DNA of 64,000 nucleotides, taken from a virus. Taxonomy: Duplodnaviria; Caudoviricetes. Both the position numbers and the translations under genes were made by a program. The stretch covers positions 96,001-160,000 of IMG/VR virus record IMGVR_UViG_3300023218_000040; one strand, given 5' to 3'. Numbering within the stretch: position 1 is the first letter of the stretch; the number at the start of each line of letters is the position of its first letter. This document shows positions 20,586-45,933 of the stretch, one piece after another. The notes beneath the pieces were generated by a model. It was not told the DNA's origin and did not search any database. It saw nothing but the letters and a program-made list of their open reading frames with translations.

Positions 20586-20595
20586 GAGGTTCAAG

Positions 20596-21605: not shown

Positions 21606-21953
21606 ATGGACGAACTCAGAGAATTGCTTCGGGCTACTGATAAGCGAATGGCTTATCACAATCAGTTGGAATTTCTCAAGGAAGAATTCCGTCAGCGCTC
21701 TATCTTTAGTTTCAATGGACACCAGTTCGTTGCTGATCTCCCTCTTGTCTGGCTAGCTGAACGTTCGATTGAGTCCGGACAACTCATAGCTCTTGATCAA
21801 AACCAAGACCCCGTGATGATTCTGGACGATGACATTGACAACTTTCTTGACGAAGTTCAAGGCACCTACTATGAGGCCATGAACTCTTACTATGAAAAGT
21901 ATACCAAGCTCAGGAATGCTAAGAGCCTGGAGGAAATAGTAGGTGTGTTTTGA
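21606..21953 (+). CDS. Conserved hypothetical phage protein
   Basis: MDELRELL... helical protein with FNGHQF and YYEAMN.Y; ATG 21606 preferred; coupled to the next gene by TGATG. Confidence 0.6.
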   Translation: MDELRELLRATDKRMAYHNQLEFLKEEFRQRSIFSFNGHQFVADLPLVWLAERSIESGQLIALDQNQDPVMILDDDIDNFLDEVQGTYYEAMNSYYEKYTKLRNAKSLEEIVGVF

Positions 21954-22792
21954 TGAACAGGGGAATCCTTCTGTGTGCTCATGATAGCGATGTGTTCTGG
22001 TATGGGCGTATGGCGTATTCCTGTTCGCTCATGATACGAGAGCACATGGGAGATTACAACATCGCTTTGGTTACAGACCCGGAAACCTGGGAACGTCTAC
22101 TCGAAGCGTATCCCCGCTCGAAACAATTGATGCGACCGGTTCTGATCGAACGCCCCAACGATGGTAATCGCAGACCATTCACAATGGCTGGTGTCTATCA
22201 TAACTCTACTCGCTCTGCTTCGTACTCTTTGTCTCCATTCGATGAGACCTTAGTCATTGATGCTGATATGCTGATATTGGATGACAGATTGAACTTGGTT
22301 TGGGGATCTAATAACGATTTCATGATGAACACTCAGATCGGTAGAATGGTTTTTCCGCATTCTACTGAAATGATAGAAAGGCGATTCAAAGAGACTGGAG
22401 TACCTTTGTATTGGGCTACCGTGTTTTACTTTCGAAAGACTCCCGCTGTTCAGGATTTCTTTCAAGTAGTCAACTACGTGAAAATCAATTACAACTACTT
22501 TGGATTGCTCCACGGGTATAATACTGCAATGTATAGAAATGACTATGCCTTCTCAGTGGCAGCGCACTTCATGGGCGGGCGCACGGAGGGAGGATTTGTT
22601 AAGCCCTTACCTATCCCGTATTTGACATTCGCATGGGACAGGGACAAGATGATTCACATCGAGCGTGGTAGGGCCGTGTTTAAGGTGGATGGGTCTACTG
22701 TTCCGGTAACATCTATTGAGAGCAACGTGCACTTCATGAACAAGTACAGCTATGAAGAGTTTGCTGAAAGGATCATCGAAGCGTATGCGTAA
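21953..22792 (+). CDS. GT-A fold glycosyltransferase-like protein (GT8-like)
   Basis: YSLSPFDETLVIDADML (DxD), YWATVFYFRKT and YRNDYAFSVA motifs. Confidence 0.7.
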   Translation: MNRGILLCAHDSDVFWYGRMAYSCSLMIREHMGDYNIALVTDPETWERLLEAYPRSKQLMRPVLIERPNDGNRRPFTMAGVYHNSTRSASYSLSPFDETLVIDADMLILDDRLNLVWGSNNDFMMNTQIGRMVFPHSTEMIERRFKETGVPLYWATVFYFRKTPAVQDFFQVVNYVKINYNYFGLLHGYNTAMYRNDYAFSVAAHFMGGRTEGGFVKPLPIPYLTFAWDRDKMIHIERGRAVFKVDGSTVPVTSIESNVHFMNKYSYEEFAERIIEAYA

Positions 22793-23708
22793 ATTCAAGA
22801 GACAGCGTGGATACATCACTATCGTTCAACAAAGTGAAGGCATCGACTATCTCAGGATGGCTTATGCCTTGGCTCTTAGTTTGCGTGCCACACAATCTTC
22901 GGTGTCTCACCTTGCCGTGGCGGTACTGCCCGGAACAAAGGTACCAAAGAAGTACGCAAATGTATTCGATGAGGTTGTAGAGATTCCCTGGGGAGATGAT
23001 GCCGCTCGTGAGAAGTGGAAGATACAAAACAAGTGGAAAGTCTATCACATCACTCCATATGAAGAGACTGTCTTGTTAGATTGCGACATGTTGTTTCCTA
23101 TGGATGTGAGTCACTGGTGGAACGTGATGGCGCATAGAAAGATGTGGACTACTACAACCCCAAGAGATTTCCGTGGTAACCCGATCTTGAACTCCAAGTA
23201 TCGGGCGGTGTTTGAGAAGAATCAACTACCAAACGTGTATTCTGCATTCATGTACTTTAAGCAAGATGAGGAAGTTCACGAGGTATTCGATTACGCAAGG
23301 CGTCAGGTATACTTTTGGTCAGAGATGAGGGATTACTATCAGTATAGGCAGCTATCGGATGAAGACATTATTGCCTATTCTAAAAACCCTCGGTTTCGAT
23401 ATCATTGGAATCATCACTACAAGACTATTCCCCATAAGGTCAGTGGTGATCTCATGTTTGCGTATGCAATGAAAGCATTGGGAAGAGAAGAATGGGCACC
23501 ATCGGTTAGTCTGCCTACCTTCACACATATGAAGGCTGGGGACCAAAAGGTCAACTCTGACGACGATTGGAAGGCTGTTTTGTCATTGACAATGAAGAGG
23601 GATTTGACTCTTGTGATAGACAATTACGTACAGCGGTATCCGGTTCATTACCACTTGAAGGATTTCTTGAATGACGGAATCATTATCCGAAAGCTCGAAG
23701 AAGCTTGA
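22785..23708 (+). CDS. GT-A fold glycosyltransferase-like protein, paralog of the upstream gene
   Basis: VYHITPYEETVLLDCDMLF (DxD), NVYSAFMYFK and FTHMK. ATG 22785 overlaps the upstream stop. Confidence 0.7.
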   Translation: MRKFKRQRGYITIVQQSEGIDYLRMAYALALSLRATQSSVSHLAVAVLPGTKVPKKYANVFDEVVEIPWGDDAAREKWKIQNKWKVYHITPYEETVLLDCDMLFPMDVSHWWNVMAHRKMWTTTTPRDFRGNPILNSKYRAVFEKNQLPNVYSAFMYFKQDEEVHEVFDYARRQVYFWSEMRDYYQYRQLSDEDIIAYSKNPRFRYHWNHHYKTIPHKVSGDLMFAYAMKALGREEWAPSVSLPTFTHMKAGDQKVNSDDDWKAVLSLTMKRDLTLVIDNYVQRYPVHYHLKDFLNDGIIIRKLEEA

Positions 23709-24234
23709 GGACTACTACCTCTACTACGAGGTACCAGAGAATTCTCGCACTGGAGCAATCAGGGCTATCAGTCCGCATAAGCTAAATGATTGGGAGAATA
23801 TGTCGTTTTTGAAAATCCCCGCCACGTTGGGTGCAAACCTCGTGAGTGGCAAGGAATCACTATTCAATTGGTCGGTAGTTTTCAATGAGCGAACACTGAA
23901 GATGGTGCTGGTGGAAACCAAACAGGCTCTTCCAAAAGCATGTCCGGTAAACAGCATACCACAAGATCAGGAAGATGCGGAAATCATTGTAAGCTGGGAT
24001 GGGACAAACTTCAAGGTGACTGCTCCCAAAGTTGAGTATGCTCTTGACGGTGTGAATCTAGACTTTTTTGTCACCGATGAAGATGAGCCTTATATTCTAC
24101 ATCAGCACTTTGGATGTCAGTTGATAGATGCGATAGATGGAAATGTGACAGTAGCGGGCATTAATGTTCCAGATGAATTCAGCGTATACACACGATGGTT
24201 GTACGAACGATATCAGTTGGTGATTGAAAGATGA
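23671..24234 (+). CDS. Hypothetical protein
   Basis: 187-aa ORF coupled at both ends inside the operon. Confidence 0.6.
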   Translation: MTESLSESSKKLEDYYLYYEVPENSRTGAIRAISPHKLNDWENMSFLKIPATLGANLVSGKESLFNWSVVFNERTLKMVLVETKQALPKACPVNSIPQDQEDAEIIVSWDGTNFKVTAPKVEYALDGVNLDFFVTDEDEPYILHQHFGCQLIDAIDGNVTVAGINVPDEFSVYTRWLYERYQLVIER

Positions 24235-25118
24235 AGATTAAGATTGAAGACACCGATGTAGTGTTCTTGTCCTACGACGAGCCGAAAGCAGATGAGTTCT
24301 TTGCTGATTTGAGAAGAAAGTGCCCATGGGCCAAGCGTGTTCACGGAGTCAAAGGATTCGACAAGGCGCACAAGGAATGCGCTCTGGCATCTGAGACAGA
24401 CCGGTTCATCACCGTAGATGGAGACAACATTGTGAATGAGGACTTCTTTTCCAAGGAGTTCGAGGTTCCGGACTCCCAGCAAGATTGTGTGTTTTCCTGG
24501 GCTGGCTTGAACATGATCAACGGGTTGATGTATGGAAACGGCGGTCTGAAATGTTGGCCCACAGCATTCGTCAAGAATATGAGAAGCCATGAGAATGCTG
24601 ACGATGGCGAGGGTTCGGTTGACTTTTGCTGGGATGAGCGGTACGTTCAGATGGAAGAGTCGTATTCTCAGACCTATCCGAATGGTAGTCCATTCCAGGC
24701 GTTTCGTGCTGGGTTCAGGGAAGGCGTCAAGATGACTTTGGACCGTGGAAGCCGAGTGAACCTGGATGAGATAGAGCTAGGCAGGCTTTGGCATGGTAAT
24801 ATCAAGAGGCTGGAAATCTGGTGCTCGGTTGGAGCCGATGTTGAGAATGGATTGTGGAGCATCTATGGAACCAGGGCTGGAGTATACTGGACCAATTTAC
24901 GTGATTGGGACCATAATCTGATTGCAGACTACGATTGGTTTCAGATGTTCTGGGAAATAGAGATTGAACCAAAGGGCGAAAGCCTCCAGGAAGAAACAAA
25001 GAAACTTGGTGATCGCCTTCGAGTTACTATGGGTTTGCAGATAGCCGAACTGGATGCCGACGCATCCCGGTTCTTCAAACACGTATACGTAGCACCAAGT
25101 AGAACAGGATATTCTTAA
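24231..25118 (+). CDS. Glycosyltransferase-like protein (phage GT-A-like family)
   Basis: VVFLSYDEP..DE, KRVHGVKGFDKAHK, FITVDGDN (DxD), NGLMYGNGGLKCW and AFRAGFREGVKM. Confidence 0.65.
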   Translation: MKIKIEDTDVVFLSYDEPKADEFFADLRRKCPWAKRVHGVKGFDKAHKECALASETDRFITVDGDNIVNEDFFSKEFEVPDSQQDCVFSWAGLNMINGLMYGNGGLKCWPTAFVKNMRSHENADDGEGSVDFCWDERYVQMEESYSQTYPNGSPFQAFRAGFREGVKMTLDRGSRVNLDEIELGRLWHGNIKRLEIWCSVGADVENGLWSIYGTRAGVYWTNLRDWDHNLIADYDWFQMFWEIEIEPKGESLQEETKKLGDRLRVTMGLQIAELDADASRFFKHVYVAPSRTGYS

Positions 25119-26488
25119 TGCCGAGGAAACGTGGAGAAAAGCCGGAACAATACAAGGAGAGGATGATTGATCCAATCTCCTCGTCGTTCTGTGCGGCCAA
25201 ATGGCTGATGGCCACGATCAACCTGGGAGCAGGAAAGAGCCGTTCCTGTCATCACCCATCCGAGCATTCTATCCCCGTTGAAGAGGTTCAGCTCTCTCCA
25301 TCCGCTATTCATAACACGGAATTTAAGAAGCGTCAGCGAAGGCTAATGCTACAAGGTGAACGACCGATTGAGTGCAGTTATTGCTGGCGTATCGAGGATA
25401 TGGAGGAAAAGGGAACTGTAGCTGATAGAGTATTCTACACCTGTTCGTTCCAAGACCGTGATGTGATGAAAGCGACACGTATGTCCTGGAATGAAAACGT
25501 CATACCTAAAAACCTGGAAATCTCATTCGACCGCATTTGCAACTTCGCTTGTTCGTACTGTAGTTCGAACTACTCTACAACCTGGGCAAAGGATATCAAG
25601 ACGGCAGGTCCGTATCGAATTCATCCGGACAATCCAGCATCGAACTACTTCTCTAGAGATGGTTCGGATCATGAACCATACGGAAAGTACAATGATGGCA
25701 ATCCGTTTGTGCAAGCGTTTTGGGATTGGTGGCCAGAGCTTCGTGAGCATCTTGAGATCCTTCGGGTAACCGGTGGAGAGCCATTGATGAGCCCGCATTT
25801 CTGGAAGCTGACAGACCTGATCGAAAGGGAGGGTGTTAATCCGAACATGCAATTTGCTGTGAATTCAAACTTTGGTGGTAAGTTTGATCTCATTCAGCGG
25901 ATCACCGAGTTCAGCACCAAGATTCCCAAGTTCTCGTTGTACACATCGTGCGAAGCACACGGTAAGCAAGCCGAATATCTACGTGATGGACTGGACTATA
26001 ACTATTGGAAGGACAACGTTTGGTACTTTATCCGAAACGGTAAGTCCGAGTTCGTCACGTTGATGATGACGGTGAATGCCCTCTGCTTATGGTCAATCAC
26101 CGACCTGTATGACGATTTGCTTGAGATGAAAGCAGAGTATGACAACAATCATCCGCTGATTTCTTCCAACATGCTGCGATATCCTACGTTCATGTCTCCG
26201 CTGGTGCTTCCTGCTTACCTGAGAGAAGAGCGGGCTGATCACATCGAGTCTTGGTTGGACAGGAATGAGCGTGCTTCTGGAGTAACCGACTTCGACCGAT
26301 ACGGCATTCGTAAGCTGATTGCATATTTGAGAAAGGGGCAAGCCGAAAGCCAAAACCAGGAGTCAGATGAGTATTCTTTCTATCACTTTTATAAACAGTA
26401 TGATCAACGACGAGGCAAGAGCTTTCGTGACACTTTCCCAGATCCATTGATTGCTTGGTATGATGAGCTAGGGGAGAAGTATGAATGA
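25118..26488 (+). CDS. Radical SAM enzyme with N-terminal twitch/SPASM-like Fe-S domain
   Basis: CNFACSYC and VTGGEPL. N-terminal FCAAKW...SCHH...CSYCW Cys cluster. Confidence 0.85.
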   Translation: MPRKRGEKPEQYKERMIDPISSSFCAAKWLMATINLGAGKSRSCHHPSEHSIPVEEVQLSPSAIHNTEFKKRQRRLMLQGERPIECSYCWRIEDMEEKGTVADRVFYTCSFQDRDVMKATRMSWNENVIPKNLEISFDRICNFACSYCSSNYSTTWAKDIKTAGPYRIHPDNPASNYFSRDGSDHEPYGKYNDGNPFVQAFWDWWPELREHLEILRVTGGEPLMSPHFWKLTDLIEREGVNPNMQFAVNSNFGGKFDLIQRITEFSTKIPKFSLYTSCEAHGKQAEYLRDGLDYNYWKDNVWYFIRNGKSEFVTLMMTVNALCLWSITDLYDDLLEMKAEYDNNHPLISSNMLRYPTFMSPLVLPAYLREERADHIESWLDRNERASGVTDFDRYGIRKLIAYLRKGQAESQNQESDEYSFYHFYKQYDQRRGKSFRDTFPDPLIAWYDELGEKYE

Positions 26489-29531: not shown

Positions 29532-29543
29532 CAGGAGAGGCAC

Positions 29544-38839: not shown

Positions 38840-38843
38840 GCAT

Positions 38844-41840
38844 TCACCGTATTTCCGACAGTGGGTGAGCATAATGTCGGTGTCTGCTCACCAAAAATCC
38901 AGTGCCCACTGCGGCATCAGCGAACGAAACGTTGTTAGTATTAATCAAGGAGTATTTATCATCCACTCCTGTATGAGTCTGCCTGATCTCATACATGCGG
39001 GCTTGATGTCTGAGCTTTTCGCCGTTGGTGAAGTATTCCTTCCAGTTGTGACTGACCTTGATGTGATTACCCGATTGCGGATCGTATGATGGGTCAAGCA
39101 TGATTCCCTGCTGGAAATTAATTAGGTCATCAAGTTTCCAAGACCAATTTACATGCTTGGACATATACTGGATCAGTCTTGAATAGAACACGTCCTTATG
39201 TCCACAAAGGCTGAGCCATAGCCAATCAGCGGGGTTCCTTCTTGTTGGTCCGAACCCGATTGCCTTTTGCATGAGATGATTTGATGGATGGTTTGGATAT
39301 GAATGTAATAGCTTTTTGAGCTTGTGTAGTCTACGACCAATAACACAGTCTTCTATCTCCATACATCCTGTGATCAGGTTTTCGTAGAACTTGCGATAGG
39401 ATACACCTTGCTCCCGGTTCAGGTATTCGGCAATGTATCTGGTGTAGTAGCCACAATGAAGAGCTTGAATAGCCCATGCGAATAGATAGCAATCAACCCA
39501 ATCGTCTTTCGACATGGTATCGGTTGCTATCACTACTTGGTTGGTTTCAATTTCTTCTGTATCTGTTCTTGGTAGTTCCAGGAACACGTTCTTGGTTACT
39601 GTCTTCAATCCATACCGGCTGACATGCTGGGCCATTGGGGCATTGGGCAATATGGAAAGCTCCCATACTCGGATATCCTCATGGTTGCCTGCTGCTATCA
39701 ATGAACAAATCCCATCGAGGAAGCTATCTTTAGTTTCCTCTGGAAGAGGCAGGATGAGTTCACTGTAGGTGTGGTATCCTTCTGCACGATATCTTTCTTG
39801 CAGTTCTCGGTATTTGTTCACACCGATGTTTTCCCTATCAACAGCTTCCAGTACACCTTCATCCATGCTTTGCATAGACAGCGTAGTTCCATAGATCATC
39901 CCCGCTTCCATGAGAGATTTGGTGATGTTGAATACCCGGTTGTTTGAGTTTTTTGCGAAGCTCCCTCGGATTTGCTTGGGGTATCCATACTCACTTTTGC
40001 TCCTGATCAAAGCGTTCGTGATTCCCTCATCAACTTTCAGCATACCAAAGTTGGCATCACAGATGTATACGTTATCGATCTGGTGTTCAGTGAAAAAGTC
40101 GAAGTCATGCCCGAGTCTCTTTAGGGAGAACTTCCTGACCTTATTCATCAATGATGATCCCCAATCGCAATTATGTGATTCTACTCCATGTACCGAATAA
40201 ACTGGTTGCTCTTCAGTTTCCAGATTAAACACATACCCGTCATAGTATTTCATTTTCACAGATTTCACTAATACTGTTTGATTTGGGTTATCAACAACAA
40301 ACTGGCCTGAAAATTCCACCCGATATGATGTGTTAACGCATACTTTCTTTCCTTGGATGTGTTCATCTAGTGATTTTCTTTGATATACACCAGCGTTCTT
40401 ACCAAACCTATTCAAGATTACTTGAAGTTGGAACGCTAAAGTTTTAGACACGGTGCTGGAAGCCCAACGCCCATTTGAATTTTCCTCGTTAATGTGAAAG
40501 GAGCCATCGCCTAAAAGATATCCTTCTATGAGTGGCTTTAGTAAAGAAGCGTCTAAATTCATCCAAAAATGGGGAATTCTCTTTGTTGTGGCCTTGTCAC
40601 CGAACATAGATTTGAATAAGTTTCCAAGAACACTGTTGCTTATAGATACTTGTGTAGCTGTGTTGGTATCTGATAAGTAAGCCTTTAAACCAAATATCGA
40701 ATACAGAGTGGATAATATCTCATTTTGAAGGTCTATTTGGTCTTTGTGAAATGTCCAATTTACAGTACACGAATTAGGTCTGTTTTTGTGAAAACAGACC
40801 GAGCCATCTGCTATGAATAGACCACAAAGCCTCATGAACTCTTTGGTAAGAGGTATGACCTTTGGTATTGGATTTTTACCCCCTGAATACCTAACCCATC
40901 CTATGTTCTCTTGAACATCCGGAAGAATATCTCCTACAGAAAGATGATCCTTCGGAATGGGGGATGGAGAAGATAGGACAAGTCTATCACCCACTCTTAT
41001 TTTAGAAGCATACTTCAATCCGTTCTCAGTGAACCACTCATGATCTGGTGTACAATGTATTTCTTGTCTACCTTGTACCTTAATAACAATCATATCACCA
41101 CGATATCGTCTTTTCATTTTTCTGGCTATTGGTTGCATTCCGTAAGAGGACCAAACATGAGAAACCGAATCAGACGATACAGCTTTTTCTATGGTCATTA
41201 CCCCATCATTCGTATAGACCCATGCATTATTGTCTAAACAAAACGAACATTGATATGGACATCCACGGTTGGTTTCCCAAGGAACCCAGAATTCTTGACC
41301 GGTCTCTTTTACTTCGGTTACGGCTGAATCCAGGAACTGATAAGGGCTATCTATTTCTATATCCTTTGGCAGCTTTTCTCCAAACAGAGATCTACTTGGT
41401 ACATGGAAATCGCTTGTGCTTGTTCCATGTAGTGGATACGCATCAGCCTCTGAAATATGAATCTTCAGAACATTAGCGAACGTTACCTCCCCCTCGCCGT
41501 GAACGATTATATCAACGTAAGGATGTTCCTTGAAGAAGTTTCCTGGTGTGTTGGGAACATGTGGACCACCTGCAACTACGTAAACCTGTGTATTCTTTTC
41601 TCGCAACAGTCGGGCGATCTTCATTTGCTTCTTGAAGTTCCAAACGTAGCAACTCAAAGCGAGAACATCGCAATCAATCTTAGCAACGATGTTCTCTGCT
41701 GTATCATCCAGAAATATGGGATCGCCCCACTCTAGTTGATTTGCTAAAGCGGGTTCGCACTCCTCGATGTAGCCCCTAAGCAATCCATGTATCAGAGGCA
41801 AGAACACCAAACGGTTCAAGCAGACGACTTGGACTTTCAT
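38844..41840 (-). CDS. Cobalamin-dependent radical SAM enzyme interrupted by an intein
   Basis: B12-binding domain (LSCYVWN, VAGGPHV, GEGEVTF); WETNRGCPYQCSF[intein]CDWG; ICDANFG; SMQS; ELILPLPEET. Confidence 0.9.
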   Translation of the reverse strand: MKVQVVCLNRLVFLPLIHGLLRGYIEECEPALANQLEWGDPIFLDDTAENIVAKIDCDVLALSCYVWNFKKQMKIARLLREKNTQVYVVAGGPHVPNTPGNFFKEHPYVDIIVHGEGEVTFANVLKIHISEADAYPLHGTSTSDFHVPSRSLFGEKLPKDIEIDSPYQFLDSAVTEVKETGQEFWVPWETNRGCPYQCSFCLDNNAWVYTNDGVMTIEKAVSSDSVSHVWSSYGMQPIARKMKRRYRGDMIVIKVQGRQEIHCTPDHEWFTENGLKYASKIRVGDRLVLSSPSPIPKDHLSVGDILPDVQENIGWVRYSGGKNPIPKVIPLTKEFMRLCGLFIADGSVCFHKNRPNSCTVNWTFHKDQIDLQNEILSTLYSIFGLKAYLSDTNTATQVSISNSVLGNLFKSMFGDKATTKRIPHFWMNLDASLLKPLIEGYLLGDGSFHINEENSNGRWASSTVSKTLAFQLQVILNRFGKNAGVYQRKSLDEHIQGKKVCVNTSYRVEFSGQFVVDNPNQTVLVKSVKMKYYDGYVFNLETEEQPVYSVHGVESHNCDWGSSLMNKVRKFSLKRLGHDFDFFTEHQIDNVYICDANFGMLKVDEGITNALIRSKSEYGYPKQIRGSFAKNSNNRVFNITKSLMEAGMIYGTTLSMQSMDEGVLEAVDRENIGVNKYRELQERYRAEGYHTYSELILPLPEETKDSFLDGICSLIAAGNHEDIRVWELSILPNAPMAQHVSRYGLKTVTKNVFLELPRTDTEEIETNQVVIATDTMSKDDWVDCYLFAWAIQALHCGYYTRYIAEYLNREQGVSYRKFYENLITGCMEIEDCVIGRRLHKLKKLLHSYPNHPSNHLMQKAIGFGPTRRNPADWLWLSLCGHKDVFYSRLIQYMSKHVNWSWKLDDLINFQQGIMLDPSYDPQSGNHIKVSHNWKEYFTNGEKLRHQARMYEIRQTHTGVDDKYSLINTNNVSFADAAVGTGFLVSRHRHYAHPLSEIR
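40170..41240 (-). mobile_element. Intein (357 aa) with LAGLIDADG homing endonuclease
   Basis: Starts CLDNNAWVYT, block B CTPDHEW, LCGLFIADGS and IEGYLLGDGS, ends VFNLET...VESHN followed by Cys+1. Visibly AT-richer than its exteins. Confidence 0.92.
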
Positions 41841-42589
41841 CTATGACTCTTCATTAACCCAAACGTTTCTAACACCCATGCACCCGGATCGAATTCCCAC
41901 TTCTCTATTCCGATACGATATTTGCTTGGGAACTTGTGATGATTATTGTGCCATCCCTCTCCTCCAGTGAAAAGGTTAGCAAACCAGTTGTTACGACTAG
42001 TCTTGTCCTTGGTTTCGTAGCTACGATACCCGTATGTATGGCTCACTGCGTTAATAAGTCCATACGCATGGAAGGCTATGGCACCAGGGATGCAGAATCC
42101 GAAAATCATAACCAGGGGATCAATCAGCCATAGCAATGCTGCCCACCCAATCAAGATGTGGAAGTAGTGCTTGTGTGCGATCATCACGTTCTTGTTCCTC
42201 AGCAAATCACGAATGAGTCTAGGCGGAATATGGAATGGCTTCCACAGGTGAAAGTATGTTCTCCAGAACCCTAGAACTATTGGTGAGTGAGGATCTTTGT
42301 CCGTGTCTACGTGAGCATGATGTAGACGATGGGATCCTGCCCATCCTAGTGGTGTGCCACCACAAGCGAGACAGCCGACATAGATCATAACTGTCTCAAA
42401 CCACTTATATGTCTCGAAACTCTTGTGCGACAGGTAGCGATGAAATCCCAGGCTAATCCCAATCGTGCCAATGAATAGCCAAACAAAATAGGATACAATC
42501 CATGCCCACCAGGGGCCATAGATGAATGCCGGAATCAACATCAGGTGGTTGAATCCGTGAATGAGTCGTAGTTTATTCGAAAAGTTCAT
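41837..42589 (-). CDS. Membrane fatty-acid desaturase (delta-9 acyl-CoA/acyl-lipid type)
   Basis: Three His boxes HRYLSH, HRLHH and HNNHH; DKDPHSP; TGGEGW; WEFDP; hydrophobic segments. ATG 42589 (ATGA overlap). Confidence 0.9.
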   Translation of the reverse strand: MNFSNKLRLIHGFNHLMLIPAFIYGPWWAWIVSYFVWLFIGTIGISLGFHRYLSHKSFETYKWFETVMIYVGCLACGGTPLGWAGSHRLHHAHVDTDKDPHSPIVLGFWRTYFHLWKPFHIPPRLIRDLLRNKNVMIAHKHYFHILIGWAALLWLIDPLVMIFGFCIPGAIAFHAYGLINAVSHTYGYRSYETKDKTSRNNWFANLFTGGEGWHNNHHKFPSKYRIGIEKWEFDPGAWVLETFGLMKSHR

Positions 42590-43245
42590 GACATTATTTG
42601 TTTGATAGCGTCGAAATGACAACCGACAAGAATTGATACTCGGGATTCATCCCCGATGACTCGAACACGATGTCGATAACCTGTGTTACAAAACCATACA
42701 TGACCAGGAAGCATAATGCGTTGTTCGATATCACTCTTCTTCTTGATTTCAAAGATTTGGTTTCCACTAATCATGATTTGCACCCGACATGCATAGCTTG
42801 TATTAGTATCTATGTGCCAGTCCAATTCTGCTCCGGGTGGCAGAATAGCAATCCTTGCACGGAAGTGTGGATTGACATACGGGGTGATAAAGGAACGAAA
42901 CTTCAGACCCTCTTTAGTGTAAGTATCGTACTCCCACTCATCAGGGACATCAATTGACGAGTTGCCGGTAACTTGCAGTAGATATTGCTTGTATTCAGTA
43001 GGAAAGTACGTCTTCAACTTGCAGGCTTGCGCAATCTCGTAGCGGTCGGAATTCTGAATGTCGTTGTAGTCCTTCGGCAATCCGTTCACAAGGAACATGA
43101 TTTCCTCATGAATAGTACGAACCACAGTTGGATCCACAGTTCCGAGTTTATAGAACAGCGGAAGTTTTTGACGATCAGGGCCATTCTCTCCACGAACACG
43201 GGCTTTGATTCGTTCTGGATCTTGTAAAGCGCATTTATCATTCAT
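42586..43245 (-). CDS. AspH-family Fe(II)/2OG dioxygenase #7
   Basis: RARIAILPPG..LDWHID...G.VWFCNTGYRHRV...RVSI. Confidence 0.72.
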   Translation of the reverse strand: MNDKCALQDPERIKARVRGENGPDRQKLPLFYKLGTVDPTVVRTIHEEIMFLVNGLPKDYNDIQNSDRYEIAQACKLKTYFPTEYKQYLLQVTGNSSIDVPDEWEYDTYTKEGLKFRSFITPYVNPHFRARIAILPPGAELDWHIDTNTSYACRVQIMISGNQIFEIKKKSDIEQRIMLPGHVWFCNTGYRHRVRVIGDESRVSILVGCHFDAIKQIMS

Positions 43246-43250
43246 GTTGA

Positions 43251-43256: not shown

Positions 43257-43278
43257 GATACTTTGGGGTTAGATTTCA

Positions 43279-44223
43279 ATGGTGGATATGAGCAAAGTAA
43301 TACGACTTGAACACCGGCATGAGGACGGCGCTAAGCACGTACTCATCGAGTGGAGTCTTGGTAACAAATGTAATTACGCTTGCTCGTATTGTCCTGCTCA
43401 TCTCCACGATGGGTCCATCGGTTGGCACCCCTATGAGAATCTAATTGGCTTCCTAGATACTGCCCACTCCCATTATTACGATAAGCTGGGCAAGAGTCTC
43501 ATGGTTCAATACACTGGAGGAGAACCAACAGTCTATCCCCAGTTCCGTGATATGGTCAAGCATGCACACGAAAAAGGCTATTTGCAAGGAATGATTTCCA
43601 ACGGATCTCGAACCATTAGGTTCTGGAAGAGTATTAGAGAGTTCTTTACAAAAATAAGCCTGACATTCCATCGTGAGTTTGCAGACCCAGAACACTATAT
43701 CAATGTAGTCCGCTGTGTATCAGAGACAACTCCTGTGCACTGCAATATTACGATGATTCCAAAGGAGTTCGACAACAACCTCAAGATGGCTGAGAGACTG
43801 TGGGAGATAGATAACGTGTCAGTTCTTCTCAAGCCGCTTCGTGAGGAGTTCAAGGGCGAACTCTACCCCTACACACCTGAGCAACTAGAAGTCATGGCAC
43901 GAGCCAGGGGAAAGGCTCCTGTGCACGTAAATTGGCCTCGCTTCGGCATGAAGGTAGTCTACGAGGACGGCACCAAAGAAAACTGCCGAGTTAACGAGAT
44001 GGTCATTCAGAAGCAGAACCGATGGAAGGGCTGGGAATGTGCTGCTGGAGTTGAACAGGTAGTCGTAACCGTAGAAGGTGATGTGTTCATTGGCAGATGT
44101 CGTGTCGGTGGATCAATCGGCAACCTCAATACCGGAGTGAATTTTCCTGACAAAAATGTAATCTGTACGAAAGATGAGTGTTGGTGTTTGACTGACATGT
44201 TGACTACGAAGGTAAGGCGATGA
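43279..44223 (+). CDS. Radical SAM enzyme with C-terminal twitch/SPASM-like domain
   Basis: CNYACSYC, YTGGEPT and ISNGS; C-terminal CAAG...EGDVFIGRC...CTKDECWC. Confidence 0.87.
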   Translation: MVDMSKVIRLEHRHEDGAKHVLIEWSLGNKCNYACSYCPAHLHDGSIGWHPYENLIGFLDTAHSHYYDKLGKSLMVQYTGGEPTVYPQFRDMVKHAHEKGYLQGMISNGSRTIRFWKSIREFFTKISLTFHREFADPEHYINVVRCVSETTPVHCNITMIPKEFDNNLKMAERLWEIDNVSVLLKPLREEFKGELYPYTPEQLEVMARARGKAPVHVNWPRFGMKVVYEDGTKENCRVNEMVIQKQNRWKGWECAAGVEQVVVTVEGDVFIGRCRVGGSIGNLNTGVNFPDKNVICTKDECWCLTDMLTTKVRR

Positions 44224-45131
44224 TTTACATCAGGGTGTATGACGAGGATGGTGATTGGAATGTCGAAGATCCAATCAATTTGAAGGCTACGGGCAGAAAC
44301 CGGTTTGAGGGTTGGAAGTGTTCTGTGGGTCAAAGGAACCTGTATATCGATTGGGATGGTAACATTTTTCGTGGTACGTGTCGAGTAGGTGGCAAGGTTG
44401 GGAATGTATACGAGGAAGACTTTCCGATGCCCGATGGTTGGGTCACTTGTGATAAGAAAACCTGCAACTGCGTGACTGAAGTTCAGCTACCGAAGGCAAA
44501 GGATTTACAAGACCCAGAAAGAAACAGCATTATCCCCATGCAAGACTTCCCTGTCTATGTTCAGTGGGATGTAGGTCGTCGGTGCAATTTTGATTGCAGC
44601 TACTGTCCTTCCTTTGTCCACAACGATCACGAGGAACATCAGAATCTTGATATCCTAAAGGACGTAGTGGTTCGACTTCATGATTCTTTTCGTGAGCCAA
44701 TCACATTCAACTTCGCTGGTGGTGAACCAACCACTCATCCGGACTTTATCGAGTGGTGCGAGTTCATCAAGAAGCTAGGGCACACAATCAATGTTCAGAC
44801 GAATGGTGCTCAGGTTGCAAGCTACTGGAAGAAACTGGCTGAAGTTGTCAATCACATCTCGATATCAGTGCATTTGGAGTTTATGACAGAAAAAAGATTG
44901 ATGCAAACCATCAATGCCATCATGGAGACTTCTTGTCTAATAGAAGTGAAAATCATGGCACACCCTGACCATTGGGACAAAGCCATGCGTTTTAAGTCGC
45001 TGATGGAACAAATTCCGTTGAATAAGGGGGTGATGCTTCCGCTTCGAACGAGCCTTGGCCGCAACACAGAATTGATGGAATATACACCAGAGCAGATGAA
45101 GGAGATGGGAACGATAAATACTCCTGATTAG
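44220..45131 (+). CDS. Radical SAM enzyme with N-terminal twitch/SPASM-like domain
   Basis: N-terminal CSVG...DGNIFRGTC...CDKKTCNC, then CNFDCSYC, FAGGEPT and QTNG. Confidence 0.87.
   Translation: MIYIRVYDEDGDWNVEDPINLKATGRNRFEGWKCSVGQRNLYIDWDGNIFRGTCRVGGKVGNVYEEDFPMPDGWVTCDKKTCNCVTEVQLPKAKDLQDPERNSIIPMQDFPVYVQWDVGRRCNFDCSYCPSFVHNDHEEHQNLDILKDVVVRLHDSFREPITFNFAGGEPTTHPDFIEWCEFIKKLGHTINVQTNGAQVASYWKKLAEVVNHISISVHLEFMTEKRLMQTINAIMETSCLIEVKIMAHPDHWDKAMRFKSLMEQIPLNKGVMLPLRTSLGRNTELMEYTPEQMKEMGTINTPD
45115..45120 (+). promoter_or_regulatory. T4-late-like promoter core TAAATA
   Basis: ATAAATA upstream of the GGAGGT RBS and ATG 45142. Confidence 0.5.
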
Positions 45132-45141
45132 GAGGTTTCCC

Positions 45142-45933
45142 ATGTCCGATATTGACCTACAATACACTTTGATGCTTGAAGGTAGATTAAATCTGATGCA
45201 TCTGCCACCAGGAGCAATCGCATGGCTGTGGGATCGCCCTAGCAAGCAGGTAGATGCCGCTGAATCTTTGGCTATTGCGGCACGAGCTTACGATAATCCG
45301 ATCACTGACGCTTCCCTACTTCGTACTGACCAGAATATCCTCATCTTGAAGTGTGAGGGTGGCGAGTGTTTCCGTATCTATCCTGATGGCGGATACAGCT
45401 ATGATAACACTCCAATGGACATGGGTGGCTGTTCGTCTGTGCTACGTGGTGACTGGTGTGGTTGTCCACACAAGGCTACTGAGACCAATCCACTTGCAGA
45501 TCGTGAACATGATAGCATGGAAGAGAAGATGGGTAACGATGAGCACCTGGATGATGAAGATCCAATGGCTGCACAGGATGTGATTCATAATATTACCAAC
45601 CTTGATGCTGAGCCATATATGGATGAGGACGTAGGTAATGAAGAACACCTGGATGACGAAGACCCAGAAGCCGGATGGTCACCACACAATATCACCAATC
45701 TGGCTGGTGAGCCAACCCGTGATGTAGATGAAGATCAGGGTGGAGATTGGGGTGGCCCAGGAACTGGTGATGGGATGGGAACTGGAACTCCGTATATCGG
45801 AGTAACCTTCATTCCGGATGAGGAGCTTGAGGCTGCTATGAACTATGAAGGCGATGATGAGTTCGCTAAGGAATGTGGTAATTATTCGGATGACGAGCTT
45901 GAGGAGCTAGCAAGGGTCACCGGGACGTATTAA
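45142..45933 (+). CDS. Acidic low-complexity protein with two internal repeats
   Basis: Strong GGAGGT RBS. The C-terminal half is D/E/G-rich with a duplicated GN.EHLDDEDP...HNITNL..EP motif. Confidence 0.7.
   Translation: MSDIDLQYTLMLEGRLNLMHLPPGAIAWLWDRPSKQVDAAESLAIAARAYDNPITDASLLRTDQNILILKCEGGECFRIYPDGGYSYDNTPMDMGGCSSVLRGDWCGCPHKATETNPLADREHDSMEEKMGNDEHLDDEDPMAAQDVIHNITNLDAEPYMDEDVGNEEHLDDEDPEAGWSPHNITNLAGEPTRDVDEDQGGDWGGPGTGDGMGTGTPYIGVTFIPDEELEAAMNYEGDDEFAKECGNYSDDELEELARVTGTY
45532..45738 (+). repeat. Two imperfect tandem copies of about 102 nt (34-35 aa)
   Basis: GNDEHLDDEDPMAAQDVIHNITNLDAEPYMDEDV (from 45532) versus GNEEHLDDEDPEAGWSPHNITNLAGEPTRDVDEDQ (from 45634). Confidence 0.8.

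What the first reader, a model, noticed from the sequence alone, without database searches (positions are those of the whole stretch)
21953..45933. A ~24-kb phage-encoded multi-enzyme tailoring cluster with no recognisable product
Seen in sequence: directly downstream of the tail genes lie about 27 mostly overlap-coupled genes in two converging arms (21953->37310 and 43245->37294) plus 43279->45933. They encode 4 GT-like proteins, 4 radical SAM enzymes (one B12-dependent), 3 SGNH-like proteins, a NodU carbamoyltransferase, 7 AspH-family dioxygenases, a methyltransferase, a GNAT-like protein, a PLP enzyme, a sulfotransferase, a desaturase and an AAA ATPase. Established knowledge: each family decorates glycans, lipids, proteins or nucleobases, and subsets occur in T4-like marine phages. 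Inference: this is one pathway, with three competing substrates. (a) Virion proteins or glycans, suggested by adjacency to tail genes and TAAATA late motifs. (b) Host envelope lipids or glycolipids: the desaturase implies an acyl substrate, and LpxO/OlsC are AspH-family lipid hydroxylases. The carbamoyl, sulfo, methyl and acyl set also parallels NodU/NodH/NodS Nod-factor tailoring. (c) DNA hypermodification, since phage NodU-type enzymes are known to carbamoylate 5-hydroxymethylcytosine.
Basis: partly seen in the sequence, partly recalled or inferred. Interest (0 to 1): 0.92.

Follow-up and report, generated by a model that had tools for sequence, protein, structure and literature searches.

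The report
Jumbo-phage sugar-building and decorating gene island
A giant uncultured phage carries, right after its tail-fibre genes, a tightly packed 24-kb set of about 28 enzyme genes that is built from conserved modules: a four-enzyme sugar-attaching cassette, and a carbamoyl-adding module with a previously unnoticed 35-residue peptide that recurs in at least 104 other viral contigs. The molecule they modify is still unknown.

Summary
Nearly every family call was reproduced. Six AspH-like genes pass Pfam and a seventh is supported by profile. The methyltransferase and GNAT calls rest on weak evidence.

The "one pathway" reading is only partly supported. The island is composite:
- **Module A** is a cassette of two GT8 and two GT-A glycosyltransferases, an N-twitch radical SAM and a methyltransferase. 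It is conserved just after tail-fibre-like genes in about 20 of 32 related IMG/VR loci, several mis-binned MAG contigs, a 355-kb JGI phage and Ralstonia phage RsoM2USA.
- **Module B** is nested inside A: radical SAM, two SGNH-fold DUF6071 proteins, a peptide ending DPFIY, and a carbamoyltransferase.
- The rest is lineage-specific tailoring. The desaturase, the B12 radical SAM and a g25/g26-type radical SAM recur near the cassette elsewhere. The seven AspH-like oxygenases do not.

Best reading (about 0.4): a decorated glycan built in the cytoplasm on a phage-made acceptor, probably the tail fibres. Rivals are a crocagin- or mycofactocin-like peptide product, DNA hypermodification, lipid remodelling and a loose island. 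The 5hmC route is disfavoured, because a complete 360.7-kb relative has only a canonical thymidylate synthase.

Other first readers of this scan had noted the peptide, here and on other DNA. I found no paper describing the cassette or the peptide.

The parts
18336..21546 (+). Upstream tail-fibre-like genes: w18336 (533 aa), w19953 (210 aa, intramolecular-chaperone domain) and w20596 (316 aa). These are candidate acceptors and are syntenic with the cassette in relatives.
   Evidence: PHROG tail-fibre hits and a Peptidase_G2 IMC domain. Homologs directly precede the cassette in L020, L025, L031, L035, L058, L059, L067, L079, L101 and RsoM2USA ORF355.
21582..21953 (+). g00, a conserved 123-aa protein of unknown function and the first gene of the cassette.
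   Evidence: 16 phmmer homologs, each directly upstream of the first GT8 gene in relatives. No Pfam, PHROG or NCBIfam hit.
21950..23708 (+). g01 and g02, two GT8-like (glycogenin-like, DxD) glycosyltransferases.
   Evidence: Family profiles against PDB glycogenin give E 2e-8 for g02 and 0.06 for g01. The invariant DxD is at D104/D106 in g01. Both are predicted soluble.
23671..24234 (+). g03, a 187-aa unknown. An ORF of similar size always sits between the second GT8 gene and the first GT-A gene.
   Evidence: Positional conservation in relatives. Only one sequence homolog was found.
24231..25118 (+). g04, a GT-A-fold glycosyltransferase (GT2-like) with a C-terminal helical domain.
   Evidence: AlphaFold model with pLDDT 90. 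VIA Z 9.8 to a beta-1,4-galactosyltransferase and 9.0 to PBCV-1 capsid glycosyltransferase A64R. D63 and D65 are invariant. At least 8000 metagenomic homologs (the candidate cap), many of about 530 aa that cover both g04 and g10.
25118..26488 (+). g05, an N-terminal-twitch radical SAM (NF033640), first gene of the carbamoylation module.
   Evidence: 298 bits against a cut-off of 170. C25, C44, C86 and C89 are invariant, plus the C141xxxC145xxC148 motif. It is 45% identical to RsoM2USA ORF202, which lies in that phage's carbamoyltransferase module.
26485..27282 (+). g06, DUF6071, an SGNH-fold protein.
   Evidence: Pfam E 2e-19. GDS, GxSND and HP..H motifs are present.
27279..27386 (+). Micro-ORF of 35 aa: a basic amphipathic helix followed by an invariant C-terminal DPFIY and one more residue. 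It overlaps both neighbouring genes.
   Evidence: Conserved next to the carbamoyltransferase in 12 of 13 lineages with a close ortholog, including RsoM2USA and a gammaproteobacterial island. A motif-only scan of IMG/VR gave 104 of 120 loci with such an ORF and 92 distinct sequences.
27361..28080 (+). g07, DUF6071, an SGNH-fold protein.
   Evidence: Pfam E 7e-13. The model has pLDDT 84 and the top 40 Foldseek hits are all SGNH/GDSL enzymes, best E 2.5e-5.
28065..29531 (+). g08, a NodU/CmcH/TobZ-type O-carbamoyltransferase with a Kae1-like N domain and a YrdC-like C domain.
   Evidence: PF02543 and PF16861 both hit. An HHESH metal motif lies at residues 105-109. In the complex prediction, peptide residues 30-35 contact residues between 15 and 217, all within the N domain. 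The verdict was weak support, 0.49 against a best control of 0.00.
29544..30635 (+). g09, a classical AAA+ ATPase (proteasomal, FtsH or Cdc48 type).
   Evidence: PF00004 E 3e-14 and NCBIfam hits. No counterpart was found in related loci.
30628..31311 (+). g10, the second GT-A glycosyltransferase and a paralog of g04.
   Evidence: 34% identical to g04. Fused to the g04 homolog in L101 and in many metagenomic proteins.
31283..31897 (+). g11, an AspH-like 2OG/Fe(II) oxygenase inserted between g10 and g12.
   Evidence: blastp matches to the paralogs and HxD...H plus Arg retained. In RsoM2USA g10 and g12 are adjacent.
31824..32453 (+). g12, a class I SAM-methyltransferase-like protein that belongs to the cassette.
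   Evidence: Profile against PDB methyltransferase 3dtn, E 0.0017, plus a GGWYG motif. 48% identical to the homolog in L101, and it precedes the radical SAM arrays in L008-type loci.
32450..33947 (+). g13 (GNAT-like, weak support) and g14 (fold-type I aminotransferase-like).
   Evidence: Atlas searches. No homologs in related loci.
33944..37310 (+). g15-g19, five tandem AspH-like 2OG/Fe(II) oxygenases.
   Evidence: All pass PF05118. Pairwise identity is 24-42% by blastp, and the catalytic residues are kept. The family is rare, with 35 proteins found.
37294..38106 (-). g20, a divergent DUF6071/SGNH-like protein with GCS in place of GDS.
   Evidence: Family HMM E 1e-65, although g20 was itself a row in the seed alignment.
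38063..38872 (-). g21, an Stf0-like sulfotransferase.
   Evidence: Atlas feature score 0.95-0.97 and TM about 0.7 to sulfotransferase clusters. An SGSRTGST loop is visible in the sequence.
38844..41840 (-). g22, a B12-binding radical SAM (KedN5-like C-methyltransferase type) interrupted by an intein.
   Evidence: Pfam B12-binding, intein and LAGLIDADG domains. Intein-free homologs occur in L035 and L033. The L035 homolog scores 273 bits on NF033712 against a cut-off of 700.
40170..41240 (-). Intein of 357 aa with a LAGLIDADG domain, inserted just before the third Cys of the CxxxCxxC radical SAM motif.
   Evidence: Alignment to the intein-free homolog, with Cys1, TPDH, and HN followed by Cys+1.
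41837..43245 (-). g24 (AspH-like oxygenase) followed by g23 (DesA-type membrane desaturase).
   Evidence: PF05118 and PF00487 hit. g23 is the only protein in the island with predicted membrane segments. A desaturase lies inside the cassette in L101 at 36% identity, in two copies. An AspH-like gene sits next to a desaturase in L044-L046.
43279..45131 (+). g25 and g26, paralogous radical SAM enzymes.
   Evidence: PF04055 hits. Homologs sit beside N-twitch radical SAM genes in Bdellovibrionota loci, and weaker ones in phage arrays.
45142..45933 (+). g27, an acidic 263-aa protein with two repeats that each contain HNITNL. Function unknown.
   Evidence: Read from the sequence. A TAAATA motif lies 21 nt upstream. 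No family hits.

Best explanation
The island is a composite machine that builds and decorates a glycan.

**Shown.** Four soluble GT-A-fold glycosyltransferases (two GT8-like, two GT2-like), an N-twitch radical SAM and a methyltransferase-like protein form a cassette. It is conserved in a lineage of T4-like jumbo phages, always just after tail-fibre-like genes. Nested between the two GT-A genes is a second conserved module: a radical SAM, two SGNH-fold proteins, a 35-aa peptide ending DPFIY, and a TobZ/NodU-type carbamoyltransferase. The remaining genes are tailoring enzymes that differ from phage to phage.

**Inferred.**
- The four transferases assemble a short oligosaccharide in the cytoplasm on a phage-made acceptor. 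The most likely acceptor is the fibre or adhesin proteins encoded directly upstream.
- The other enzymes diversify the glycan or its attachment sites. They would add methyl, C-methyl, amino plus acetyl, sulfate, hydroxyl and carbamoyl groups.
- The carbamoyltransferase makes carbamoyl-AMP in its YrdC-like domain.
- The peptide's C-terminal Tyr motif docks in the enzyme's Kae1-like domain. There it serves as an adaptor or as a transient carbamoyl carrier, and the SGNH proteins may unload it onto the final acceptor.
- The phage-to-phage variation in tailoring enzymes fits selection on a surface structure involved in host recognition or in evading host defence.
For: **Synteny.** The cassette directly follows fibre-like genes in about 20 of 32 IMG/VR relatives, four mis-binned MAG contigs, a 355-kb JGI phage and RsoM2USA ORF355-347.

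**Gene fusion.** g04 and g10 are fused into a single protein in many homologs.

**Transferase folds.** g02 matches glycogenin. The g04 model matches protein-directed and capsid glycosyltransferases, including PBCV-1 A64R, POMGnT1 and COLGALT1, at Z 9-9.8.

**Cell location.** Every protein except the desaturase lacks membrane segments. No flippase, polymerase or polyprenyl-phosphate transferase is present.

**Related context.**
- A sugar-nucleotide epimerase and a short-chain dehydrogenase flank the cassette in L101.
- In cyanophage S-CAM1, a carbamoyltransferase and heptose or NDP-sugar genes lie between two tail-fibre genes.
- A complete relative has the same nested layout.

**Peptide and carbamoyltransferase.**
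- They are strongly linked: 21 of 25 motif-found loci with at least 3.5 kb of flank on both sides carry the enzyme.
- The complex prediction gives weak support, 0.49 against a best control of 0.00. That mark was reached by 51 of 78 solved complexes and 2 of 108 mismatched pairs. Scores of 0.60 or below are more often wrong than right unless the pairing was already likely.
- Contacts involve peptide residues 30-35 and the Kae1-like domain.
- DUF6071 has the SGNH fold.
Against: - No acceptor has been shown. Position next to fibre genes is only circumstantial, and such positions are also common sites for unrelated accessory genes.
- The membrane desaturase recurs in the cassette and has no role in protein glycosylation.
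- The peptide-carbamoyltransferase pair also lies between primase and helicase genes in 35-57 kb phages. That does not fit a fibre-glycan role there.
- The modules are 95 kb apart in RsoM2USA.
- The tandem arrays of four to nine radical SAM paralogs in relatives are unexplained by glycan chemistry alone.
- The complex score is in the weak range.
- Expression timing is unknown, because no RNA runs were found.
Confidence: 0.4

Rival explanations
1. Peptide-derived natural product (RiPP-like, working like crocagin or mycofactocin). The DPFIY peptide would be the precursor. Radical SAM or 2OG oxygenases would modify its C-terminal residues. The carbamoyltransferase would carbamoylate a hydroxyl, an SGNH-fold hydrolase would release the core, and the glycosyltransferases, methyltransferase and sulfotransferase would tailor it.
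For: - The C-terminal core is invariant while the basic leader-like part varies, across 92 distinct sequences.
- A radical SAM or radical SAM-like gene directly precedes the peptide in L017 and L031.
- A minimal bacterial island, L063, holds a GT28-like gene, an SGNH gene, the peptide and the carbamoyltransferase, with an N-twitch radical SAM alongside.
- Crocagin biosynthesis uses a precursor whose core contains Tyr, a 2OG dioxygenase, the SGNH-like protease CgnD, the carbamoyltransferase CgnI and an N-methyltransferase. Related clusters contain glycosyltransferases (PMC10070186).
- CgnD appears among the fold hits of g07, at E 2e-3.
- The peptide's C-terminus is predicted to contact the transfer domain of the carbamoyltransferase (weak support).
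Against: - Most peptide-carbamoyltransferase loci have neither a radical SAM nor an SGNH gene.
- No peptide-recognition element, leader protease or exporter was recognised.
- The GT cassette occurs without the peptide nearby in L101, L035 and L067.
- About 27 enzymes for a five-residue core is excessive.
- Bdellovibrionota radical SAM arrays lack the peptide.
- The peptide matches no NCBIfam precursor family.
Confidence: 0.2
2. DNA hypermodification. A modified base, such as a hydroxymethylated pyrimidine, would be glycosylated and carbamoylated, with the basic peptide tethering the carbamoyltransferase to DNA.
For: - A phage carbamoyltransferase of this two-domain family converts 5hmdC to 5-carbamoyloxymethyl-dC and prefers single-stranded DNA. 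It co-occurs with dCMP-deaminase domains (Yang et al. 2021, PMC8670742).
- A dCMP deaminase gene borders the island at 45930-46568.
- In 35-57 kb phages the peptide-carbamoyltransferase pair lies between a Toprim-like gene and a DnaB helicase gene.
- The peptide is very basic.
- RsoM2USA has a second, divergent ThyA-family gene scoring 85 bits.
Against: - No ThyA-type hydroxymethylase was found in the 204 kb held for this genome, which has ThyX plus a dCMP deaminase. The Tet/JBP search also found nothing, but its control matched no genome, so that negative is uninformative.
- The complete 360.7-kb relative G013, with the same nested cluster, has a single ThyA carrying Asn177, the canonical thymidylate-synthase residue. 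It has no Tet/JBP hit, although that control also matched no genome.
- The island sits in the structural gene block.
- In Yang et al., carbamoyltransferases on unmodified contigs were flanked by glycosyltransferase genes, as here.
Confidence: 0.12
3. Remodelling of a host or phage-induced lipid or glycolipid. The product would be desaturated, hydroxylated, glycosylated, sulfated and carbamoylated, in the manner of Nod-factor or sulfolipid tailoring.
For: - A DesA-type desaturase lies inside the cassette here, and in two copies in a 355-kb phage.
- An AspH-like gene next to a desaturase recurs in L044-L046.
- The Pfam AspH family also includes the lipid hydroxylases LpxO and OlsC (established knowledge).
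- The sulfotransferase is Stf0-like, and Stf0 makes a sulfolipid precursor.
- SGNH enzymes include lipases.
Against: - All AspH-like, transferase and SGNH proteins lack membrane segments.
- There are no acyl-carrier, acyltransferase or lipid-carrier genes.
- Desaturase homologs elsewhere occur without the rest of the cassette.
Confidence: 0.1
4. A loose island of unrelated auxiliary genes that have accumulated at a permissive site after the tail-fibre genes, with no common product.
For: - The modules separate in RsoM2USA and in small phages.
- AspH-like genes lie elsewhere in relatives.
- Five gene types have no counterpart near the cassette in any relative.
- A homing endonuclease and inteins show that the region is open to mobile DNA.
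Against: - Translational coupling is tight throughout.
- The g04 and g10 genes are fused in relatives, yet here they are split by module B.
- The same nesting occurs in G013.
- The desaturase, the B12 radical SAM, g25/g26-type radical SAM, the carbamoyltransferase and the methyltransferase repeatedly and independently co-locate with the cassette.
Confidence: 0.15

Closest known systems
Virus-encoded cytoplasmic glycosylation of virion proteins: chlorovirus PBCV-1 capsid glycans (A64R and partners), the Mimivirus fibril glycosylation cluster, and mycobacteriophage capsid and tail-tube glycosylation
   Same: - Soluble virus-encoded GT-A enzymes act without a lipid carrier.
- Methyltransferase, aminotransferase and acetyltransferase genes accompany them.
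- PBCV-1 A64R is among the best structural matches of g04 (Z 9.0).
- The genes lie beside structural genes.
   Different: - No acceptor has been shown here.
- Those systems have no radical SAM arrays, carbamoyltransferase, SGNH proteins, micro-peptide, sulfotransferase or desaturase.
- Apart from the fold match, the comparison rests on my own knowledge of those systems, plus the mention of Freeman et al. 2023 in PMC12619734.
Crocagin biosynthesis (CgnA-CgnL, Chondromyces crocatus; PMC10070186)
   Same: It combines a small precursor whose core contains Tyr, 2OG-dependent hydroxylation, an SGNH-like hydrolase (CgnD), a carbamoyltransferase (CgnI) and a methyltransferase. Glycosyltransferases occur in related clusters.
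   Different: - The core is different: IYW there, DPFIY here.
- No homologs of the peptide-binding proteins CgnB or CgnE were recognised.
- The oxygenases here are AspH-type.
- Radical SAM enzymes are absent from the crocagin pathway.
- This system is viral.
- The peptide-carbamoyltransferase pair usually occurs without the other parts.
MBOAT-SGNH acyl-tyrosine shuttle (DltB/DltX/DltD and PatA/PatB; PMC12148441)
   Same: A micro-protein or tail carries an invariant Tyr in an F-x-Y context (FIY in Neisseria gonorrhoeae PatA, FIY here), next to SGNH-fold transferases.
   Different: - There is no MBOAT partner.
- The peptide is soluble and basic, not a membrane protein.
- The motif stops after Y plus one residue, so it lacks the final xxF.
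- The group moved would be carbamoyl, loaded by a Kae1/YrdC-type enzyme.
- Many loci have no SGNH gene.
Phage 5-hydroxymethylcytosine carbamoyltransferase (Yang et al. 2021, eLife; PMC8670742)
   Same: It has the same two-domain carbamoyltransferase family, it is encoded by a phage, and a dCMP deaminase gene lies nearby.
   Different: - The defining partner, a ThyA-type dCMP hydroxymethylase with Asp177, was not found here.
- In a complete relative that position is Asn.
- The neighbours here are glycosyltransferases, which is the context that paper reports for unmodified contigs.
Accessory islands of T4-like cyanophages (for example S-CAM1), which hold a Nol-like carbamoyltransferase, sugar-nucleotide genes and several 2OG-Fe(II) oxygenases
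   Same: The carbamoyltransferase and sugar-pathway genes sit between tail-fibre genes. Oxygenase paralogs are abundant in marine phages.
   Different: - The carbamoyltransferases are only 30% identical.
- Those islands have no DPFIY peptide, no DUF6071, no N-twitch radical SAM and no GT8/GT-A cassette.

Membership tests
GT8 (glycogenin-like retaining glycosyltransferases) | Significant sequence-profile match to GT8 members, covering the nucleotide-sugar-binding half and the DxD motif | tested here: met
   The g02 family profile against glycogenin gives E 2e-8 over profile positions 5-112. DxD is conserved. For g01 the match is E 0.06, which is inconclusive.
GT-A fold / GT2-like glycosyltransferase (g04, g10) | GT-A Rossmann-like fold with a DxD motif | tested here: met
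   The model has pLDDT 90. Z is 8-9.8 to many GT-A enzymes over residues 2-150. D63 and D65 are invariant in 40 sequences.
GT-A fold / GT2-like glycosyltransferase (g04, g10) | Pfam PF00535 at the gathering threshold | tested here: not met
   There is no Pfam hit even at E below 5. Homologs show only faint or occasional PF00535 hits. This is therefore a new GT-A family, not a curated GT2 member.
NodU/CmcH/TobZ O-carbamoyltransferases | Both Carbam_trans_N (Kae1-like) and Carbam_trans_C (YrdC-like) domains above threshold, plus a His metal motif | tested here: met
   163 and 175 bits. HHESH lies at residues 105-109.
NodU/CmcH/TobZ O-carbamoyltransferases | Orthology to NodU itself (NCBIfam equivalog cut-off) | tested here: not met
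   135 bits against a cut-off of 1000.
5hmC carbamoylation system (Yang et al. 2021) | A co-encoded ThyA-family dCMP hydroxymethylase with Asp at E. coli position 177 | tested here: not met
   None was found in the 204 kb held, which is about 55% of the genome. The complete relative G013 has one ThyA with PFNIASY, meaning Asn177. RsoM2USA has a second, divergent ThyA that I did not inspect.
SGNH/GDSL hydrolase superfamily (DUF6071: g06, g07, g20) | SGNH fold with a block I Ser, block II Gly, block III Asn and block V His | tested here: met
   The fold is confirmed. GDS, G.S, SN and HP..H are conserved. The canonical block V Asp is absent, and g20 has GCS.
MBOAT-SGNH acyl-tyrosine shuttle | An FxYxxF hexapeptide on a membrane micro-protein or MBOAT tail, plus an MBOAT partner | tested here: not met
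   Only F-I-Y is present and the peptide ends one residue later. It has no membrane segment, and no MBOAT gene lies in the island. The motif definition comes from PMC12148441.
RiPP pathway of the crocagin type | A precursor peptide modified by neighbouring enzymes, with dedicated peptide-binding proteins (CgnB/CgnE) and leader removal | not testable with these tools
   Only the gene content is analogous. No chemistry is available, and no CgnB/E-like protein was recognised.
AspH family 2OG/Fe(II) oxygenases (PF05118) | Pfam gathering score, an HxD/E...H iron triad and a 2OG-binding Arg | tested here: met
   Six genes pass Pfam. All seven keep H, D, H and R. g11 is supported only by blastp and my profile.
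N-terminal-twitch radical SAM (NF033640) | NCBIfam curated cut-off and an N-terminal Cys cluster before CxxxCxxC | tested here: met
   298 bits against 170. Four N-terminal Cys residues are invariant.
Cobalamin-dependent (class B) radical SAM | An N-terminal B12-binding domain plus an intact CxxxCxxC motif | tested here: inconclusive
   The B12-binding domain is present. The cluster motif is complete only after the intein splices out. The KedN5 subfamily cut-off was not reached by the L035 homolog (273 against 700). g22 itself was not scanned.
Class 1 intein with homing endonuclease | Cys1, block B TxxH, C-terminal HN followed by a nucleophile, and LAGLIDADG | tested here: met
   The boundaries read CLDNN...TPDH...SHN|C, and Pfam finds Intein_splicing and LAGLIDADG_3.

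The most novel reading that the evidence does not exclude
The 32-44-aa peptides ending DPFIY form a new, widespread class of viral micro-protein that works with Kae1/YrdC-type carbamoyltransferases. At least 104 viral loci carry one, with 92 distinct sequences. They occur in genomes from 35-kb phages to 360-kb jumbo phages, and in a bacterial island.

The peptide would be one of two things. It could be a cytoplasmic carbamoyl-tyrosine carrier, analogous to DltX but without an MBOAT partner. Or it could be the precursor of a carbamoylated, glycosylated peptide product made by phages.

In jumbo phages this pair would be wired into a glycosyltransferase and radical SAM supercluster. Its variable enzyme arrays, radical SAM in some phages and AspH-like oxygenases here, would diversify one product.
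Probability: 0.3. Interest if true: 0.9.

Novelty: new variant of a known kind. Interest (0 to 1): 0.74.

Why it matters
**Scale of the commitment.** Jumbo phages devote 24-30 kb, about 7-8% of the genome, to this chemistry, and the core is conserved from soil Ralstonia phages to aquatic metagenomes. It is therefore likely to matter for infection. If the product is a fibre or virion glycan, it would be the most elaborate phage glycosylation system yet seen. It would also be a route to host-range variation or defence evasion.

**A route to experiments.** The conserved micro-peptide is an entry point for a very common but functionally obscure phage gene, the "Nol-like carbamoyltransferase" of marine phages. 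RsoM2USA is cultured and carries both modules, so the question is directly testable.

**Enzyme resource.** The island also offers several unstudied enzyme types:
- a new GT-A family with at least 8000 members, the cap of the search;
- N-twitch radical SAM arrays;
- a rare AspH-like clade.

Tried and rejected
**Searches that found nothing.**
- Megablast of the whole island against 50,697 phage records gave no match.
- Single-protein pattern scans of IMG/VR for g14, g18 and g26 found nothing.
- tblastn of g18 against isolated phages found nothing, and g14 matched only one pelagiphage.
- Pfam at E below 5 and NCBIfam gave nothing for g01-g04, g10, g13, g21 and g27.
- The g04 family profile against PDB sequences gave nothing, so a fold search was needed.
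- NCBIfam on five DPFIY peptides gave one sub-threshold hit, Lacal_2735 at E 0.005, which I did not use.
- Literature searches for DUF6071, DPFIY, and radical SAM with jumbo phage and glycosyltransferase returned no papers. The search for "twitch domain-containing radical SAM" returned only general radical SAM papers.
- No RNA sequencing run holds the region, so co-expression could not be tested.

**Ideas tested and dropped.**
- The T4 late-promoter consensus TATAAATA is not enriched, so I did not use late timing as evidence.
- The 840-bp gap in a Bdellovibrionales radical SAM array holds transposase-like fragments, not a precursor peptide.
- The "moraphage" paper (PMC12619734) describes a different lineage.
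- Cyanophage carbamoyltransferases at 30-33% identity have no DPFIY peptide nearby.

**Uninformative or weak results.**
- The Tet/JBP searches tell nothing, because the control matched no genome.
- Complex prediction for the carbamoyltransferase with the peptide gave only weak support, 0.49 against a best control of 0.00. I use it only as a pointer to the interface.

Full report
**Setting**

The window is bases 96001-160000 of a 204-kb IMG/VR virus record, estimated 55% complete. Two of its proteins also occur on a 360-kb contig. The phage is a T4-like jumbo phage. It has a baseplate wedge, a 3426-aa virion protein and fibre genes, one with an intramolecular-chaperone domain. These lie just upstream of the flagged region. 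A polynucleotide kinase/phosphatase, an S41 peptidase and an RNA ligase follow it. GC content is even across the region. There is no near-identical DNA among isolated phages.

**The observation**

- Twenty plus-strand genes run from 21582/21953 to 37310.
- Five minus-strand genes run from 43245 down to 37294.
- Three plus-strand genes run from 43279 to 45933.
- Almost all are joined by 1-8-nt overlaps.

Family calls were reproduced with independent tools:
- **Radical SAM:** four genes. g05 scores 298 bits on the N-terminal-twitch family NF033640. g22 has a B12-binding domain.
- **Other clear calls:** a two-domain carbamoyltransferase, an AAA ATPase, and a DesA-type desaturase.
- **AspH-like oxygenases:** six pass Pfam and a seventh is found by profile. 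All keep HxD...H plus Arg.
- **DUF6071:** two proteins plus a divergent third. One model has the SGNH fold.
- **Glycosyltransferases:** two GT8-like proteins. Two paralogous proteins have no Pfam hit, but the g04 model is a GT-A fold with an invariant DxD.
- **Other tailoring enzymes:** an aminotransferase-fold protein and an Stf0-like sulfotransferase.
- **Weak support:** a methyltransferase and a GNAT.
- **Unassigned:** g00, g03 and g27.

It splits the CxxxCxxC motif of the B12 enzyme just before its third Cys.

**A conserved cassette (module A)**

I searched IMG/VR with g05 and recovered 32 loci. I then mapped all island proteins onto them.
- About 20 loci carry the order: fibre-like genes, g00, GT8, GT8, a small ORF, GT-A, then radical SAM genes.
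- The same order occurs in RsoM2USA ORF355-347.
- It occurs in a 355-kb JGI phage.
- It occurs in four contigs mis-binned into bacterial MAGs.

The two genes therefore work together, even though 5.5 kb separates them here. The methyltransferase-like g12 follows the cassette in RsoM2USA and in the JGI phage. It also precedes the radical SAM arrays in another phage group.

**A nested carbamoylation module (module B) and its peptide**

RsoM2USA carries DUF6071, radical SAM, DUF6071, DUF6071 and the carbamoyltransferase at 125 kb, 95 kb away from module A. In the window this module lies between g04 and g10. The complete 360,683-bp relative G013 has the same arrangement over about 29 kb.

Earlier first-reader notes of this scan had flagged a small ORF ending DPFIYD. 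I followed that lead and found it to be a real, conserved gene.
- It lies next to the carbamoyltransferase in 12 of 13 lineages with a close ortholog. These include RsoM2USA, where it is unannotated, and a gammaproteobacterial island flanked by integrases.
- Of those, 104 hold an ORF of 70 aa or less ending DPF[IVL]Y plus one residue. There are 92 distinct sequences, all with a basic helix before the motif.
- In the 25 loci with at least 3.5 kb of flank on both sides, 21 have the carbamoyltransferase, 11 a DUF6071, 5 an N-twitch radical SAM and 3 the GT-A gene.

The tight pair is therefore the peptide and the carbamoyltransferase. The complex prediction gave weak support: 0.49 against a best control of 0.00. 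That mark was reached by 51 of 78 solved complexes and 2 of 108 mismatched pairs. Passes at or below 0.60 are more often wrong than right unless the pairing was already likely. The model places peptide residues 30-35 against the Kae1-like N domain. Consistent with this, some small phages pair the peptide with a protein made of that domain alone.

**The rest of the island**

Several right-arm genes recur beside the cassette or its radical SAM genes elsewhere:
- the desaturase, at 36% identity and in two copies, in the JGI phage;
- the B12 radical SAM in L033 and L035;
- g25/g26-type radical SAM next to N-twitch radical SAM genes in Bdellovibrionota genomes, and more weakly inside phage arrays;
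- an AspH-like gene next to a desaturase in L044-L046.

Others do not recur:
- AspH-like genes in two large relatives lie far from the cassette.
- The AspH clade is rare.
- No counterparts of the AAA, GNAT, aminotransferase, sulfotransferase or g27 genes were found near any cassette.

Relatives carry four to nine tandem, very divergent N-twitch radical SAM paralogs. This phage has one of that type and seven AspH-like oxygenases. That could be an oxygen-dependent replacement for the same kind of C-H chemistry, but this is inference only.

**What it acts on**

All proteins but the desaturase are predicted soluble. There is no flippase, polymerase or lipid-carrier transferase. The acceptor is therefore cytoplasmic. 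The evidence for each candidate is as follows.

- **Virion protein.**
  - The cassette has a fixed position after fibre genes.
  - The transferases are glycogenin-like or resemble capsid and protein glycosyltransferases.
  - Sugar-nucleotide enzymes sit in the JGI cassette.
  - Cyanophage S-CAM1 shows a parallel, with a carbamoyltransferase and heptose genes between two fibre genes.
- **Peptide product.**
  - The gene content parallels crocagin biosynthesis.
  - The bacterial island L063 looks like a minimal version.
  - Most peptide-carbamoyltransferase loci lack radical SAM and SGNH genes.
- **DNA.**
  - Points in favour:
    - Yang et al. showed that this enzyme family carbamoylates 5hmC.
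    - A dCMP deaminase borders the island.
    - In 35-57 kb phages the pair lies between primase-like and DnaB genes.
  - Points against:
    - The required hydroxymethylase is absent from the 204 kb held.
    - The complete relative G013 has a single ThyA with Asn177.
    - In that paper, carbamoyltransferases flanked by glycosyltransferase genes lay on unmodified contigs.
- **Lipid.** Only the desaturase, and family-level analogies, support this reading.

I therefore rank the readings as follows: a decorated glycan on a phage protein at 0.40, a peptide-derived product at 0.20, a loose island at 0.15, DNA at 0.12 and lipid at 0.10. The peptide may serve different acceptors in different phages.

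**Comparison with known systems**

- The closest functional analogues are viral cytoplasmic virion glycosylation (PBCV-1, Mimivirus, mycobacteriophages) and crocagin biosynthesis.
- The DltX/PatA acyl-tyrosine shuttle shares only the F-I-Y context and SGNH partners. Its defining FxYxxF motif, membrane location and MBOAT partner are all missing.
- Each enzyme belongs to a known superfamily. The GT-A family fails the GT2 Pfam threshold, and the carbamoyltransferase fails the NodU equivalog cut-off.
- I found no paper on DUF6071, the DPFIY peptide or the cassette. The search for the N-twitch family name returned only general radical SAM papers.

**Verdict**

The single-pathway interpretation is partly supported. 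The island is a modular glycan-tailoring supercluster around two conserved cores, and its substrate is unresolved. It is a new variant of known kinds of system. It includes a widespread, undescribed micro-peptide partner of phage carbamoyltransferases, and a cultured phage is available to test it.

Noticed in passing
window 40170-41240 (minus strand), inside g22 (38844-41840): A 357-aa LAGLIDADG intein sits immediately before the third Cys of the radical SAM CxxxCxxC motif, so the iron-sulfur site exists only after splicing. Homologs in L035 and L033 lack the intein.
   Followed up: yes
G000 73014-75860 (outside the window, about 20-23 kb before its start): ThyX is encoded in a 1059-aa open frame whose Pfam match is broken into three stretches. 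This suggests two inteins. With the intein in gp55 noted by another reader, this phage is unusually intein-rich.
   Followed up: partly
L156/L228 and L161/L229 (35-57 kb viral contigs): The DPFIY peptide and the carbamoyltransferase lie between a primase-position gene (weak Toprim hit in L228, no Pfam hit in L229) and a DnaB helicase gene. In one group the enzyme is only the Kae1-like N domain (about 330 aa). L228 also carries several 2OG-Fe(II) oxygenase genes.
   Followed up: partly
L050-L100 (genome contigs): Cellular homologs of the N-twitch radical SAM are overwhelmingly in Bdellovibrionota MAGs, in tandem arrays of up to nine. Their neighbours include GT1 and GT28 glycosyltransferases, a DegT aminotransferase, an ABC-2 transporter and SPASM radical SAM genes.
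   Followed up: partly
L058 (Legionellales MAG PBLX01000002.1), L059 (Haliscomenobacter MAG), L067 (Fischerella MAG), L079 (Neomarinimicrobiota MAG): These MAG contigs carry the phage fibre genes and the full cassette in phage order. They are probably jumbo-phage contigs mis-binned into bacterial genomes.
   Followed up: partly
window 45142-45933 (g27): This acidic protein has two roughly 33-aa repeats, each containing HNITNL (an N-x-T motif). A TAAATA motif precedes it, and it lies directly after the two radical SAM genes g25 and g26. It could itself be a substrate protein.
   Followed up: no
window 43279-45131 (g25, g26): The two radical SAM paralogs share a 69-aa segment at 36% identity. 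It is C-terminal in g25 and N-terminal in g26, which suggests a shifted or permuted duplication.
   Followed up: no
window 45930-46568 (minus strand): A single ORF fuses an endonuclease VII domain to a dCMP deaminase domain. It overlaps the end of g27 by 4 nt in convergent orientation.
   Followed up: no
window 16146-17633: An HNH/homing-endonuclease gene (PHROG E 4e-106) is inserted between structural genes just upstream of the fibre genes.
   Followed up: no
window 31824-31897: g11 (AspH-like) overlaps the conserved start of g12 by 74 nt, and overlaps g10 by 29 nt. In RsoM2USA g10 and g12 are adjacent, so g11 looks like a later insertion.
   Followed up: partly
MG752970.1 (RsoM2USA) 7739-8398: A second, divergent ThyA-family gene (85 bits, against 242 for the canonical copy) could be a pyrimidine hydroxymethylase. 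Its position-177 residue was not inspected.
   Followed up: no
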